DNA of 20,092 bases from a virus (lineage: Duplodnaviria; Heunggongvirae; Uroviricota; Caudoviricetes). Positions 6,001 through 12,000 of this stretch are shown piece by piece. Where the stretch lies: the IMG/VR virus record IMGVR_UViG_2541047908_000008, positions 1 through 20,092 of that record. One strand, given 5' to 3'. Made by a program: the position numbers. Each line of letters begins with the position of its first letter. Position 1 is the first letter of the stretch.

Positions 6001-9000
6001 AAATTCCTTTTCCTCTTTCGTTTCCTGCGGTAGAGACATTATTCGATCGTAGTTTTTTCTGAATTTATCCAGCACCTCCGATACGGAATTGCCGGAACAG
6101 CGGCGCGCGTCGTCCGCACCATACAGAGGCGCTGGCATAATTAAATCCTTATTTTTCTAAATCAGAATGGGATGGAATCGTCGTATACAGGAGTGTTCTG
6201 CTGGTTACTACTTTGCTGCTGTTGGCTGTTTCCTGAGGTTGCAAATCCAATCTTTGCATTCAGTAATTCAAGAGTGATTGATTGACCATTTTGCCCCTGA
6301 TAAACATCAACCCTGATGTTTTCTCCGGTAATTTCTACAATGCCTCCTTCAACCAGAACGCTACGATAGTAATCCGCTTGCGCTCCCGGCTTGGCAAATA
6401 CAACGGCGCTGTAGTTTGTCCATTCTTTCTTTTTTGTCTGGCGATCGTAATACTGAACGCCAGCACGGATGTTGAATCCGATATTTTCCCCGGCCTGAAA
6501 CTCTCTTGCGGGCTTGTTTAGTCTTACAGTAATCGAATGTGCCATTAAGCAGCCGCTCCTTCTAATTCGTCTCGTCTGATGTTGTAAATGTCCTGCGCTT
6601 TGTGCTGCTCCGGTGTGCCTTCGAGCATCTTCCACGCTTTGGCGAAAGCCTGTTTAAGCTCTTCTACGGTGTTTTTCTGCATTGCTGCGTCAGTGAATGC
6701 TTTTAGAACCTGTTCAGGTGTAGGTGATGGTTTTGATTGCTTTGCTGCTGCGTTCTGCTGATGTTTATGCTCGTCTGTATCTGCATCTTTCGCATCATCA
6801 ATGCCGAACAAACCATTGAGGCAATACTTGCGTGCATAAGAGCTTGTAGCTCCCGTAACTTGTGCAGAATCCATTCCTTTCTTGCTTTCTTCCTCTCGTG
6901 CAAGAGCGGTTGCCGTATGACTGTTTTCACCATCGGTAATAGTTGCCGTGGCTTTCACGTAATACCGATCACCAATCAACACAACTTCATCGCTGATTGA
7001 TAAAAACAGGCCATTCAGTAACGGCTTAACGCCTTCAAGAATGTCTTCGCAGCTTCTGTATTTATATTTGCCGAATGAGTTGTACTGATTCTTTGGCGCG
7101 TTCAGATTCTCCTGAATAGCTGCCAGTCTTGCGTAAAATTCTTTGCTCATATGTTTGTTCTCAGAATGGACATGGCCCAAGGAAATAACGCTGATTTAAT
7201 ACTTCAGTCTTTGCCGCATTTAAAAATACGCGAACACCTTCACGATCTCCCTTCTGGCGATACATTAACGCCTGCTGCGTGTACATGCGTCTCTGTAACT
7301 TGCTCTCCTTCACTGTGGTTGCAAGTGACATGCATATCTCCTTCGTTACCGATTAATTCTTTCATCTGACGAATGAATTCTTCGTCTGACCAGTTATCTG
7401 TAAAACTCATGGACGGCCTTGTTGTTTCAAAATATCCCAAAGCTTTTCGAGCAAGCTTTTCATTCTTGGTTGTTTAAAGTCTGCTCCGGTTAAAATATTT
7501 TTTCGTGAATGCTGTACCGATAAAATCGGGTTGAAAGGGCGAACCGATGCCGCCCCTGCAATAGCGAACTGTTGCATAGGATGCTCCTTCTGTTTGATTG
7601 CATAACGAAAACGCCTCGAGTGAAGCGTTATTGGTATGCATATAAAAAGGCCCTCACACTGGAGGGCAAAGAAGATTTCCAATAATCAGAACAAGTCGGC
7701 TCCTGTTTGGTTACGAGCGACATTGCTCCGCGTATTCACTCGTTGGAATGAATACACAGTGCAGTGTTTATTCTGTTGTTAGTGCCAAAAATAAAGGTCG
7801 ACTATGCGGCCTCGGAAGGAAGTCCAATCATCTTATTCAAATCTTCTACCCGTAAAGCAGGAAGTGCTGTACTTGCTTTATCTGCTTCTTTTGGTAGCAA
7901 TTCTTTGCTTTCAGGCCAAACTTCAATAAGTCGCTTAACTGTTGTGACTGAGTTCAAAGCAGCCCATACATTTGATTCGATATCCTTTTTCAAGGCTTCA
8001 AGGTTTTGTTGCAATGCGCAGATTTCATCAAACCTTTTTGTTATTTCGTGTTCTGCGTCAAACATGCATTTATCTTTGGTTGGAGTAGGGAGCAATATAT
8101 CTTCGCCGTTGCCGTCTTTCCCATATGAATGCCATCCAACCCTTCTGCCAGATACAGTCAGATAAATTGAAGTAGAACGAACATCGTATGAGTAAAATGA
8201 ACATCCCATCTTTTTAAGTTCTTCACTTATAGCTACCAACTTGGATGATAACTGATCCACTTCCTCAGTTTTCTTTTTACCGCCAAACGCAATAACTCTG
8301 GCGTCAAGTGCAAGCTGGTTCTTTAACTTTGTTACTTCTTCAAGTTCAGTGAAAACCCCAGACTTAATTAAAGCGTTACGAGCGATTTCCTCTTTCATTC
8401 TCGTAGTTAAGCGGATTGATGACATATTAATTCCTCTCAAATAAGTGGTTTGCTGCCTAATTTCATTTTCTGGCGACCAACACAAGTCACACCCATTTCA
8501 CTGCGTGGCTTGCGGTAGTAAAGATTGTGCCTGTCTTTTAACCACATCAGGCTCGGTGGTTCTCGTGTACCCCTACAGCGAGAAATCGGATAAACTCTAT
8601 TCACCCCTACAGAGAGAATGATGGAGATTCACCGATGAGTAACTGGTGGCAGGAACTATTACGTTTCTTCCTGCGTGGTCTTACGCTACAACAGTTAATT
8701 CATATGCTTATTATTTTAATTGCCTTGATAATAATCACCCCAGCATCAATTAAAGAGTGGGTAGATATAAGGAATCCTGAAATACTTCCAGATCACTGGA
8801 TGTATTACGCAATGCTTTTGTGTATCAGTTATGTTCTGAACAGGGTGATGGAGTTTATATTTCTGGCATCTTCAGACAGATATAAAAAATATCTCAGTAA
8901 GAGAGATGAGGCTAAAGTAATTGTGGAGACTGAGCGCCTGTTCAATTCTCTGAGTATTCAGGAAAAAGAGGTTTTAGCATTTGCTGTTATGGCAAATAAC

Positions 9001-12000
9001 AAAATCGTACTTAAGCACGGCGATCCGGTCGCTTTATCTCTTATGAGAAAAGGTCTTCTCCATCGCTCAGGTGTGACTTACAGCGCGTCAGGTAAAGAGA
9101 AATTTGTTATACCTGACGTCTGGTTCCATGAGTGTTATATGCGCTTTGCTGGTAAAGCTGATGAGCTAATTTAGTTCCTCGACGGCGGGGGATCGTTACC
9201 TCGCTGTCAGTTGTTTGGATTTCCGGTAGCCTGCCGCGTAAATGGCTACGTTTGGCAGGCAAATACTTCCACTGCATTCGTCGGTATTTTGGTTACGAAT
9301 GTTGCCGAGTGATATTGCTTTTTCAGAAAGGCTTAAACGCTTTCTCGTGCCTTTCTGAACTGGTTCCTCGCTGTCTGTTCCGAAGATCGAATCGATGATG
9401 TTGCAGATGGAATCACGCTCGATAGCCAGTTTTCTGCGCCGCTCATGACGGCGAGTTTTGGCATTTCCTGCGAATGTTGATTTTCCGTACACGATTACCG
9501 TCATGATGTTTCCCTCATGTGAAATGGCTTTGGTGGTGATGCGCCAGATGCTGATCTTCTGGTTGCTGTCGTTGCAGCTGCAATTCACATCACCGCCAAA
9601 CCCATCTCGTTTGGTATCTGTTTGCGCTTTGTCAGCGCCCCATCGAAGTTAAAGAGCCTGCCAATCTTTTCCGTTTGGCTTCCAGCGTCCTGCTGATGTG
9701 ACAATAATGAACCAATAGTTCGACATTATCAAGAACTATTGGTACGAAATTTTTGTGATTTATTAATGCTGCGAGATATGATTTTGATATATAAGGAAAT
9801 TTATTTTTGTAAATGCTGCAGATTGGTCTGTAGTTGGAGTGGTTATTGCTGGTGAGTTGGTTCGCGGTTTACCACATTTGCGGCTATTAAATATGGGAGG
9901 GCGATCGTGAGGCAAAGAAAACCCGGCGCTGAGGCCGGGGCAATAAAGTTATTCTGCGTCAATATCTTCTACGGTTAGTAGAGGGTGTACCTTATCAAGC
10001 AATTGGATGAAATCTTCATAAGTATCGCTTGCTTGCATGAGTGTTGTTACCCCTGTAAGTCTCTTTTGAAGAAGACCATATCCAGTTCCCTCTGATAGAA
10101 ACTGATGCATTTTTGCACCTGCCTTTTTTGCTTTTGCTCTTTCTTCCTTTAGCGCATTTCTTAGCTCTGGTGCCATGCGGTCATAAGTTATGTTATTCAC
10201 AAGATGACCAAAGTATTGCGGTCTCCGCATGTTTGCTTTGAATGGGACTCCTCTGAGTCTACATAACTCCTCAAAGAATTCTGGCGGATATGTGCTTACC
10301 CATGGTCGCATTTCTTTAGCGATGAATTGCTCAAGGAGTTTTGCCAGTTCATCGCGCTCTCGTTCTTTTTGGTATCCAGTCGCTTCATCAACGAGCGCAA
10401 CGGCGCCAACTCTAGCTAGAGCTTTATAGAGCGCTTTGGCTTTTGCAGCTGTATTCAAGTGATGCTTTTGTCGTAGGGCTCCATCCCTCTCAGCATCTGT
10501 CCATGCCTCGCAAAGCGCTGGTAGCATAGTAACGTCAATGCCATAAGCGACACCTGCACCTGATGTATTTTTATATACAATTGGTTCTGCTAGCGCTTCT
10601 CTTAGTTCATCAGAAATATATGGCTGAAGCTCATTTGCTTGGAGAACATATGGTAATTGACCTGGCTTCCCATTTGGTACCCATCTTGGCATTTTTGAGC
10701 CAACAGATACACCGAATGTTTCTGCCAATCCATTTGCACCTTGCATTGAAACCACTCTGCGACCATCAGGCAAAACAGCACAAGAAACACCTGTCGCCAT
10801 TAATCCTGTGTGAGTTGGCTTTGGAGCTGATCTAACGATTGCTGACATTGCTGCTGCTTTTTGAGCTCGTTTTTTAGTATCCATAAATCCCCCATATGCT
10901 TGGTTATGGTGATGATAGCTTATTTCAAATAAGCAGGGCAATGGTAGCTAAATCATCAATTAGCTACAAAATGCATCATTTTTATTTATCTCATTGATAT
11001 GTATATATTTATCGCTAAAATATTTTTAGCTATTCTGTGATTAAGCTAAATATTAATGCTAATTAATGCGTTAGCACAATGTGTGGATCACTACCAATAA
11101 AAAAGGCCGCACTTCTGTGCGACCTTTCATCATCCAAACGTCTCTTCAGGCCATTGGTTACCAGCTATGTGACGATGAAGTCACGAACTTTTCAGCCACT
11201 CCCTTGCCTCGATGTCATCCAGATGGCGGGACTGCTTCAGAATACCAGCCACATACTCCACCTTTGCTACTTGATGATAAGGCAACGTTATTGGTCTGTG
11301 GTCTTGGTTGATGCTTGTAAACTGGTATTCTCCATCTCTGTCATAGCCAAGAATCTTGATCATGTTGTGTCCTTCGATGGTTCTGACAAACACCTCATCA
11401 CCCGGGAATACTTTGGTGTTAGGCTCAATGAGTACATATTCTCCTGATTTTATTCTGGGCCACATGCTGTCTCCTTTCACACGAAGACCAAAGGCATCTG
11501 GATCATCGCTATAAATTTTGAGCCACCCATCGCGCTCTTCGGTCATCTCGATGGCACCATCAACACCAAGAATTGCCTCACCAACCACGCGCACTAACCC
11601 TTTTTTTAATTTGCCAACAAATGAAAGAGTATCTTCATCATTCGCTCCATTTAACGAAGTGCCGTGCTGAAGCCAAACAACATCAACGTTTAGAAATTTC
11701 GCAAGCGCATTCATTTTTTCCTGACGCGGTAAAGACTCAGCATTAAACCATTTGCTAACGCCTTTGGACGAAAGAGAAAGGGCACGGGCTATGGCCATCC
11801 CCCTACCATGTTCATCAAGACCAGCTTCTTTACAGGCTTGCGCTAGCCGCTGGGCGAATTCTTTGCGCACTTTTTCATTCTGAACCATGAGTACGATACT
11901 AAAGCACTTGCAAAAACTTTCAGTTCAACCATAATACGTACTGAAAGTACGAAAAAGGATATTCCTATGCAAAATCTTGATGAGCCGATTAAAGGTGTCG

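What the first reader, a model, noticed from the sequence alone, without database searches (positions are those of the whole stretch)
8635..9174. Rightward membrane-protein gene (SieB-like) embedded against the leftward early operon
This is the only + strand gene in the left arm and it converges on N with a 21-bp gap. The product has two N-terminal hydrophobic helices plus a cytoplasmic domain, and the gene is AT-rich. Position, orientation and architecture match lambda/P22 sieB, which aborts superinfecting phages, but I could not verify sequence identity. Together with the 207-aa ORF it forms a divergent accessory island.
Basis: partly seen in the sequence, partly recalled or inferred. Interest (0 to 1): 0.5.

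Follow-up and report, generated by a model that had tools for sequence, protein, structure and literature searches.

The report
Known prophage sieB exclusion gene
This is an intact copy of sieB, a long-known prophage gene whose membrane protein makes a lysogen abort infections by rival phages, so it is an ordinary and already annotated feature.

Summary
Window 8635-9174 (+) is an intact 179-aa ORF. It passes the Pfam SieB model (72.8 bits, cut-off 26) and is 49% identical over its full length to the characterised P22 SieB (E 2e-57).

- The identical protein is already in RefSeq as WP_000073666.1, "super-infection exclusion protein B". This DNA allele occurs in 123 of 5426 complete E. coli genomes.
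- The P22 regulatory features are present. The mapped P_sieB promoter is identical. The in-frame Esc start aligns (Met24 here, Met25 in P22). The sas antisense RNA region matches at 104 of 105 positions. The gene converges on a P22-type N gene across 21 bp.
- The "divergent accessory island" with the neighbouring ORF (206 aa, Nmad5 domain) is not supported. The two genes occur independently in other phages.

Most likely function: abortive exclusion expressed from the prophage, with Esc and sas providing self-protection. This is inferred by homology.

Novelty: already known. Interest is low.

The parts
8635..9174 (+). sieB coding sequence. 179 aa: N-terminal amphipathic helix, TM1 at about 16-38, short acidic loop, TM2 at about 56-78 continuing into a long stalk helix, and a C-terminal globular domain at about 106-175.
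   Evidence: ORF. Pfam PF14163, 72.8 bits against a cut-off of 26. PHROG 1301, E 3.6e-94. 49% identity to P22 SieB, E 2e-57. 100% identical to WP_000073666.1. Hydropathy. AlphaFold model with mean pLDDT 76.6.
8704..9174 (+). Nested in-frame esc-equivalent ORF starting at Met24 (156 aa). In P22 the corresponding product, Esc, inhibits SieB.
   Evidence: P22 esc is annotated as starting 72 nt into sieB, at Met25. That Met aligns with window Met24 within the conserved motif QLIHMLIIL. Whether translation starts there is inferred, not shown.
8566..8596 (+). P_sieB promoter homologue. The inferred sieB mRNA start is at about 8603.
   Evidence: These columns are identical to the promoter annotated in P22 (BK000583 29690-29720) and to the annotated RNA start 29727. 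The consensus sigma-70 scan did not call it because the hexamers are weak. The assignment therefore rests on homology to a mapped promoter.
8512..8639 (-). Homologue of the P22 sas antisense RNA. It is complementary to the sieB leader, ribosome-binding site and start codon (8603-8639) and extends upstream through the promoter region.
   Evidence: The published 127-nt P22 sas sequence (PMC13397905) aligns as a reverse complement to 8512-8639. Positions 8512-8616 match at 104 of 105; 8617-8634 has diverged. The block is conserved in 139 phage records. There is no Rfam family for it and no unusual fold (z -0.15). Expression is not testable here.
9181..9208 (+). Candidate strand-specific terminator of sieB. 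It lies in the gap between sieB and N and overlaps the last codons of N.
   Evidence: Terminator-like hit with a 10-pair stem. Free energy on the + strand is -21.5 kcal/mol (z -2.83), against -11.1 (z -0.73) on the - strand. The T-run is weak (AGTTGTTTGG). Inferred.
9196..9507 (-). Context: the N antiterminator gene (P22 gene-24 type) that converges on sieB. The likely start is Met28 of the 130-aa ORF.
   Evidence: Pfam N_peptide, 134 bits, residues 29-130. PHROG 271. The choice of start codon is inferred from the Pfam coverage.
9624..9638 (-). Context: nutL boxB, P22 type (GCGCTGACAAAGCGC). It marks the leftward N-antiterminated transcript that reads antisense through sieB.
   Evidence: One exact match and none in 100 shuffles. 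Its identity as the P22-type boxB rests on my own knowledge. P22 nutL is annotated at the equivalent position.

Best explanation
The ORF is a functional P22-type sieB gene in a lambdoid prophage of Escherichia.

Proposed mechanism, by homology with P22:
1. In the lysogen the gene is transcribed rightward from its own weak constitutive promoter (about 8566-8596). This is independent of the repressed leftward early operon.
2. The full-length product inserts in the inner membrane through an N-terminal two-helix hairpin. Its C-terminal domain faces the cytoplasm.
3. When a heterologous lambdoid phage superinfects, SieB aborts that phage's lytic cycle midway by shutting down macromolecular synthesis. 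This is an abortive-infection type of exclusion.
4. The phage protects itself in two ways. The in-frame internal start at Met24 gives an Esc-like truncated protein that inhibits SieB. During lytic growth an antisense RNA (the sas homologue, 8512-8639 on the - strand) pairs with the sieB leader and start codon, shifting translation from SieB to Esc.

Shown here: family membership, intactness, genomic position, and conservation of the promoter, the Esc start codon and the sas sequence.

Inferred: expression, membrane topology, the exclusion phenotype and the sas/Esc switch.
For: - Family membership: Pfam SieB scores 72.8 bits against a cut-off of 26, and PHROG 1301 gives E 3.6e-94.
- Homology: 49% identity and 74% positives over residues 2-179 to P22 SieB, E 2e-57.
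- Prior annotation: the identical protein is named super-infection exclusion protein B in RefSeq.
- Conservation: copies at 95% identity or more occur in 123 of 5426 E. coli genomes.
- Layout: promoter, sieB/esc, short gap and convergent N gene match P22 and lambda.
- Regulatory elements: the promoter and RNA-start region are identical to the P22 annotation, and the Esc Met is aligned.
- sas: the region matches at 104 of 105 positions.
- Protein architecture: TM hairpin.
- Literature on the P22 mechanism: SieB stops macromolecular synthesis midway through superinfection (PMC10883804). The sas RNA switches translation between the two sieB products (PMC12197685 and PMC7067206). [quoted passage not shown]
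Against: - There are no functional data for this allele. It is only 49% identical to the tested P22 protein.
- Divergence is strongest in the stalk (20% identity, residues 71-105) and substantial in the C-domain (45%). Its target range may therefore differ.
- The protein lacks the last 13 or so residues of P22 SieB.
- The Esc start has no evident Shine-Dalgarno sequence. The same is true in P22.
- No canonical sigma-70 promoter was found for sieB or for sas (sequence inspection). The 5' end of sas may arise by processing.
- 53 of the 123 E. coli genomes carry only partial copies, so the gene is dispensable and often decays.
- No PADLOC or NCBIfam model matches it.
Confidence: 0.85

Rival explanations
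1. The gene is a SieB-family member by descent but is no longer an exclusion gene. It would be a decaying or neutral moron remnant, kept only because its 5' region carries the conserved promoter/sas block.
For: 53 of 123 E. coli genomes have only partial copies. Truncated and fragmentary database entries are common. Stx2a phages replace window 8523-9295 (most of the sas block, sieB and the 3' end of N) with 47 bp. This allele is 13 aa shorter than P22 SieB at the C-terminus.
Against: - The ORF is intact and covers the family profiles end to end (PHROG positions 2-180 of 193).
- 70 genomes carry copies covering at least 80% of the gene; the 15 best listed are full-length at 99.1-99.3% identity.
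- A 98%-identical cluster of the same 179-aa length has 245 member sequences. The shorter C-terminus is therefore the allele's normal form.
- The ribosome-binding site is good.
Confidence: 0.08
2. The main selected role of the locus is protective rather than aggressive. Its Esc-type product and sas RNA would serve mainly to let this phage grow in cells that already carry SieB-producing prophages, and exclusion by the full-length protein would be secondary.
For: The Esc start and the sas block are the most conserved parts of the locus. The sas block is 97-100% identical across phages whose SieB proteins are only 21-49% identical to this one. [quoted passage not shown]
Against: Only about 14 nt of the conserved block overlaps the sieB mRNA. 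The pairing region near the ribosome-binding site is allele-specific, which argues against broad protection in trans through sas. The N-terminal 23 residues unique to full-length SieB are also well conserved with P22.
Confidence: 0.05
3. It is a different kind of small membrane protein, such as a SieA-like DNA-injection blocker or a holin-like or toxin-like protein, that only superficially resembles SieB.
For: Small proteins with two transmembrane helices are common among phage morons. Pairwise BLASTP to lambda and Rac SieB is not significant.
Against: Significant homology over the full length to P22 SieB, including the soluble domain. The Pfam match is above the cut-off. The only other Pfam hit, DUF7632, is below its cut-off. 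The genomic position and regulatory block are identical to P22.
Confidence: 0.02

Closest known systems
Salmonella phage P22 SieB / Esc / sas system (Ranade and Poteete 1993; annotation in BK000583)
   Same: - 49% identity over the full length, E 2e-57, with the same N-terminal membrane hairpin.
- The same position, converging on the N homologue: 21-bp gap here, 20 bp in P22.
- An identical P_sieB promoter region.
- The Esc start Met is aligned.
- The sas region matches at 104 of 105 positions.
- nutL boxB is of the P22 type.
   Different: - The stalk (20% identity) and the C-domain (45%) have diverged.
- The protein is 13 aa shorter at the C-terminus.
- The 18 nt before the ATG, which are the part of the sas pairing region next to the ribosome-binding site, are allele-specific.
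- The left neighbour is an Nmad5-domain gene rather than ral.
- The host is Escherichia, not Salmonella.
Phage lambda SieB (lambdap48, NP_597779) and Rac prophage SieB (b1353)
   Same: The same Pfam family. The same orientation and position, converging on N in lambda or on the equivalent early-left region in Rac. The upstream promoter/sas block is about 97% identical to this window in lambda and about 79% in Rac.
   Different: Only 21% (lambda) and 18% (Rac) protein identity in the multiple alignment. Pairwise BLASTP is not significant for lambda (E 0.10) and marginal for Rac (E 0.014). These are a different subfamily from the window protein.
RefSeq WP_000073666.1, super-infection exclusion protein B, in E. 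coli prophages
   Same: 100% identical protein. Window 8505-9262 has a 98.6%-identical match among loci L001-L005. I assign it to L002 from its coordinates, because the blast subject file held several loci. The CDS alone is 536/540 identical to L002.
   Different: The flanking genes differ: ral, an IS3 element and RecT in strain MMC-J-0105, against Nmad5 and Erf here. This shows the cassette moves as a mosaic unit.

Membership tests
SieB family (Pfam PF14163 / PHROG 1301) | Sequence match to the family profile above the curated threshold. | tested here: met
   72.8 bits against a gathering score of 26, covering residues 23-154. PHROG 1301 E 3.6e-94 over residues 1-179.
SieB family, P22 subtype | Full-length homology to the experimentally characterised P22 SieB. 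| tested here: met
   BLASTP: 49% identity, 74% positives, no gaps, residues 2-179, E 2e-57.
SieB family, lambda/Rac subtype | Direct pairwise similarity to lambda or Rac SieB. | tested here: not met
   Lambda E 0.10 and Rac E 0.014, with only short local matches. The relationship is detectable only through the profile, so the window protein is not filed under this subtype.
SieB family | Small inner-membrane protein with an N-terminal hydrophobic hairpin and a soluble C-terminal part. | tested here: met
   Hydropathy shows TM1 at 16-38 (strong) and TM2 at 56-78 (borderline). The AlphaFold model has helices at 18-34 and 55-104 and a compact domain at 106-175. The topology (both termini cytoplasmic) is inferred from the charge distribution.
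sieB locus (P22/lambda) | Position in the early-left region, on the opposite strand to the P_L operon, converging on the N homologue. | tested here: met
   sieB ends at 9174 and N (Pfam N_peptide) ends at 9196 on the - strand. nutL boxB lies at 9624-9638 (-). P22 and lambda have the same arrangement.
sieB locus (P22) | Its own promoter, P_sieB, active in the prophage. | tested here: inconclusive
   The sequence at 8566-8596 is identical to the annotated, experimentally mapped P22 promoter. The generic sigma-70 scan does not call it. Activity cannot be tested here.
sieB/esc (P22) | An in-frame internal start giving Esc, the inhibitor of SieB. | tested here: met
   Met24 (ATG at 8704) aligns with P22 Met25, the annotated esc start. 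It is conserved in all P22-type homologues. Only the presence of the codon is shown; translation is not testable.
sieB/sas (P22) | A cis-antisense RNA (sas) covering the sieB translation start. | tested here: met
   The reverse complement of 8512-8639 aligns to the published P22 sas sequence, with 104 of 105 identical over 8512-8616. Only sequence homology is shown. The promoter or processing origin of sas, and its expression, are not determined.
SieB family | Abortive exclusion of superinfecting heterologous phages. | not testable with these tools
   This needs plating or burst assays on a lysogen or a clone.
Catalogued anti-phage defence systems (PADLOC-DB 2.0) | Match to a defence-system model. 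| tested here: not met
   No hit at E up to 0.01. No NCBIfam hit either.

The most novel reading that the evidence does not exclude
Two aspects are not excluded by the evidence and, as far as I could find, are not described.

(a) The cytoplasmic domain of SieB may be a membrane-tethered winged-helix-like module. That would suggest SieB senses a phage nucleic acid or protein at the membrane.

(b) The roughly 90-nt block upstream of the sieB mRNA start (8512-8598) carries P_sieB and the 3' two-thirds of sas. It is 97-100% identical among phages whose SieB proteins are only 21-49% identical to this one. The 18 nt next to the start codon co-vary with the allele. The conserved sas body could therefore have a function of its own, such as stability, a trans target or a recombination junction. 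The variable 5' part could set allele-specific self-recognition.
Probability: 0.25. Interest if true: 0.4.

Novelty: already known. Interest (0 to 1): 0.12.

Why it matters
It matters mainly for annotation. The window carries a standard P22-type early-left region of a lambdoid prophage, with a prophage-expressed exclusion gene that can shape which phages, including Stx phages, can superinfect the host.

The molecular mechanism of SieB is still poorly understood (PMC10883804). A diverged natural allele with a conserved regulatory block and a variable C-terminal domain could therefore be useful comparative material. Nothing here is unexpected.

Tried and rejected
- Rfam scan of 7500-11000 at E up to 1 gave only a chance-level ToxT thermometer hit. 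There is no family for sas.
- Folding the sas homologue showed no exceptional structure (z -0.15). The sieB leader did not either (z -0.81).
- The generic promoter scan found no sigma-70-like site in 8300-9700. Inspecting the - strand of 8640-8690 by eye found no convincing sas promoter in this window or in P22.
- PADLOC and NCBIfam gave no hits.
- A profile search of PDB sequences gave nothing significant; the best E was 0.15.
- The afdb50 fold library was unavailable.
- The original Genes & Development paper on sas is not in the held library.
- A one-word literature search for "SieB" was swamped by the botanical author abbreviation "Sieb.".
- The first word-index homologue search returned only 6 proteins. 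It had to be repeated with an alignment that included P22, lambda and Rac SieB.
- The idea that sieB and the Nmad5 ORF form one island was tested against other phages and rejected.
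Full report
**1. Observation**

It runs from ATG 8635 to the stop ending at 9174 on the + strand and encodes 179 aa. A GGAG Shine-Dalgarno sequence lies 8 nt before the ATG.

- The next gene to the right is a - strand ORF ending at 9196, so the gap is 21 bp as stated.
- The gene has 39.1% GC against 46.9% for the window, which places it in the lowest 0.5% of 540-nt windows.
- Hydropathy gives a strong first transmembrane segment at about residues 16-38. The second, at about 56-78, is weaker. An AlphaFold model also places helices there.
- The claim that this is the only + strand gene of the left arm is essentially right. 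All - strand ORFs tested from 1419 to 8485 hit phage families: integrase, Abc2, SSB, Erf and others.
- The + ORFs tested lie over - strand ORFs and hit no family. The exception is 3144-3461, which hits a PHROG but is antisense to a - ORF that also hits a PHROG.

**2. Identity**

- The protein matches Pfam PF14163 (SieB) at 72.8 bits, with a gathering score of 26. It matches PHROG 1301 at E 3.6e-94 over its whole length.
- It is 49% identical (74% positives, no gaps, residues 2-179, E 2e-57) to the SieB of Salmonella phage P22, where the system was characterised.
- It is only 21% identical to lambda SieB and 18% to Rac SieB in a multiple alignment. Pairwise BLASTP to these two is not significant or only marginal. 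It therefore belongs to the P22 subtype.
- No record in the phage collection holds a copy above 60% protein identity.
- The DNA occurs at 95% identity or more in 123 of 5426 complete E. coli genomes. There PGAP names the product "super-infection exclusion protein B".
- The protein of E. coli MMC-J-0105, WP_000073666.1, is 100% identical.
- A profile search of 1.84 billion cluster representatives finds only 206 clusters at E up to 0.001. The family is small.

**3. Regulatory anatomy**

The P22 reference annotation (BK000583) lists these features in order: a sieB promoter, the sieB RNA start, sieB, the nested esc CDS starting 72 nt downstream at Met25, a 20-bp gap, and the convergent gene 24, which is the N homologue. 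All of them have counterparts in the window.

- Window 8522-8616 is practically identical to P22. This stretch includes the annotated promoter (window 8566-8596) and the RNA start (about 8603). The coding sequence is only about 65% identical at DNA level.
- Met24 (ATG 8704) aligns with the P22 Esc start and is conserved in all P22-type homologues.
- The 127-nt sas RNA sequence recovered by small-RNA sequencing of P22-infected cells (PMC13397905) is the reverse complement of window 8512-8639. Positions 8512-8616 match at 104 of 105.
- The block is found in 139 phage records. It is about 97% identical upstream of lambda's own, very different, sieB and about 79% identical in Rac.
- By my own recollection of Ranade and Poteete (1993, J Bacteriol), which was not checked here, the lambda sieB promoter was originally found through its homology to P22's. 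The block's conservation fits that.
- Downstream, a hairpin at 9181-9208 is stable only as + strand RNA: -21.5 kcal/mol (z -2.8), against -11.1 on the other strand. It is a plausible sieB terminator that would not block the leftward operon.
- To the right lie N (Pfam N_peptide, 134 bits) and an exact P22-type nutL boxB at 9624-9638 on the - strand. N-antiterminated leftward transcription therefore reads antisense through sieB.

**4. Mechanism**

The literature on P22 states three things.

- SieB causes macromolecular synthesis to stop midway through the lytic cycle of superinfecting P22-like phages, but not of P22 itself (PMC10883804).
- The sas antisense RNA switches translation between the two polypeptides encoded in sieB (PMC12197685 and PMC7067206).

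The same scheme is the best explanation for the window gene, given the full-length homology and the conserved promoter, Esc start and sas region. These steps are inferred by homology, and none is shown for this allele.

**5. Structure**

An AlphaFold2 model was built from a 23-sequence alignment. It has mean pLDDT 76.6, with 83-89 over residues 70-140 and again over 150-170. The model shows:

- a short N-terminal helix;
- the TM hairpin;
- a long helix at 55-104, formed by TM2 and a stalk;
- a compact alpha/beta domain at 106-175.

**6. Divergence and mosaicism**

- Against P22, identity is 69% in residues 1-70, 20% in the stalk (71-105) and 45% in the C-domain.
- Window 8505-9262 has a 98.6%-identical match among the fetched loci. 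I assign it to the E. coli MMC-J-0105 prophage (L002) from its coordinates, because the blast subject file held several loci. The flanking genes there are different.
- In Stx2a phages window 8523-9295 is replaced by 47 bp.
- The left neighbour (7802-8422, - strand, 206 aa) has a Pfam Nmad5 domain at 240 bits. It lies in the same orientation as the leftward operon.
- In mEp235 that gene sits downstream of N and Nun, and in PhiR12_1 directly after N. Neither phage has sieB there.
- sieB and this ORF are therefore independent mosaic modules that happen to be adjacent. They are not a functional divergent island.

**7. Window context**

The left end matches the E. coli chromosomal gene ybhC and is followed by an integrase. 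No complete E. coli genome covers 80% of the window or more. The best phage matches are HK97, CUS-3 and Stx phages, at about 40% coverage. This is a new mosaic of known lambdoid modules in an Escherichia-like chromosome.

**8. Verdict**

The finding is real and correctly interpreted as sieB. It is already known: the family, the locus architecture and even the exact protein are in public annotation. Interest is low.

Two points are mildly interesting. One is the extreme conservation of the promoter/sas block compared with the gene it controls, with only the 18 nt next to the start codon being allele-specific. The other is the predicted winged-helix-like cytoplasmic domain.

Noticed in passing
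window 8512-8598 (compare 8617-8634): The promoter/sas block is 97-100% identical in P22, lambda and more than 100 lambdoid phages, although their SieB proteins are only 21-49% identical to the window's. Only about 14 nt of the conserved part overlaps the sieB mRNA. The 18 nt before the ATG vary with the allele. The reason for this degree of conservation is not explained by antisense pairing alone.
   Followed up: partly
window 7802-8422 (-): A 206-aa ORF with a full-length Pfam Nmad5 match (nucleotide modification associated domain 5, 240 bits). Distant relatives occur in Vibrio and Pseudomonas phages, and one is annotated as a 5-hmdU DNA kinase domain protein. Here it occupies the ral position of the early-left operon. 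In mEp235 and PhiR12_1 it lies in the early-left operon without sieB (directly after N in PhiR12_1, after N and Nun in mEp235).
   Followed up: partly
window 9949-10941 (-): A 330-aa ORF with a P63C domain lies between the cI-like repressor (11181-11888) and nutL/N. This is the slot that rexAB occupies in lambda, so it may be a cargo gene expressed in the lysogen. It has no PADLOC hit.
   Followed up: no
window 8523-9295 against L006 (Stx2a phage Stx2_EH0505) 1624-1670: In Stx2a-converting phages most of the sas block, sieB and the 3' end of N are replaced by 47 bp, while both flanks are 95-98% identical. This is a clean insertion/deletion of the sieB cassette.
   Followed up: partly
window 3144-3461 (+) and 3147-3452 (-): Two almost perfectly overlapping antisense ORFs each hit a PHROG family strongly: phrog_20945 at E 1.6e-60 and phrog_625 at E 2.3e-51. 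One of these families is probably built from wrong-strand gene calls.
   Followed up: no
window 8618-8638 (+): A six-codon mini-ORF (ATG ATG GAG ATT CAC CGA TGA) overlaps the sieB ribosome-binding site and start codon through an ATGA overlap. It is absent from P22 and specific to this allele. It may be chance.
   Followed up: no
window 8570-8583 and 8604-8616 (+): A direct repeat, CCCCTACAGCGAGA and CCCCTACAGAGAG, flanks the -10 region of P_sieB and the mRNA start. It is also conserved in P22 and partly in Rac. Its function is unknown.
   Followed up: no
window 1-2489: The left end, ORF 1-1284 (-), matches the E. coli chromosomal gene ybhC and is followed by a tyrosine integrase at 1419-2489 (-). 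The window therefore spans a prophage-chromosome junction. No complete E. coli genome covers 80% of the window or more.
   Followed up: partly
E. coli genome hits of window 8635-9174: 53 of the 123 E. coli genomes with this sieB allele carry only partial copies. Many truncated SieB fragments, and frameshifted Rac-type versions, are in the protein databases. This suggests frequent decay or intragenic recombination.
   Followed up: no
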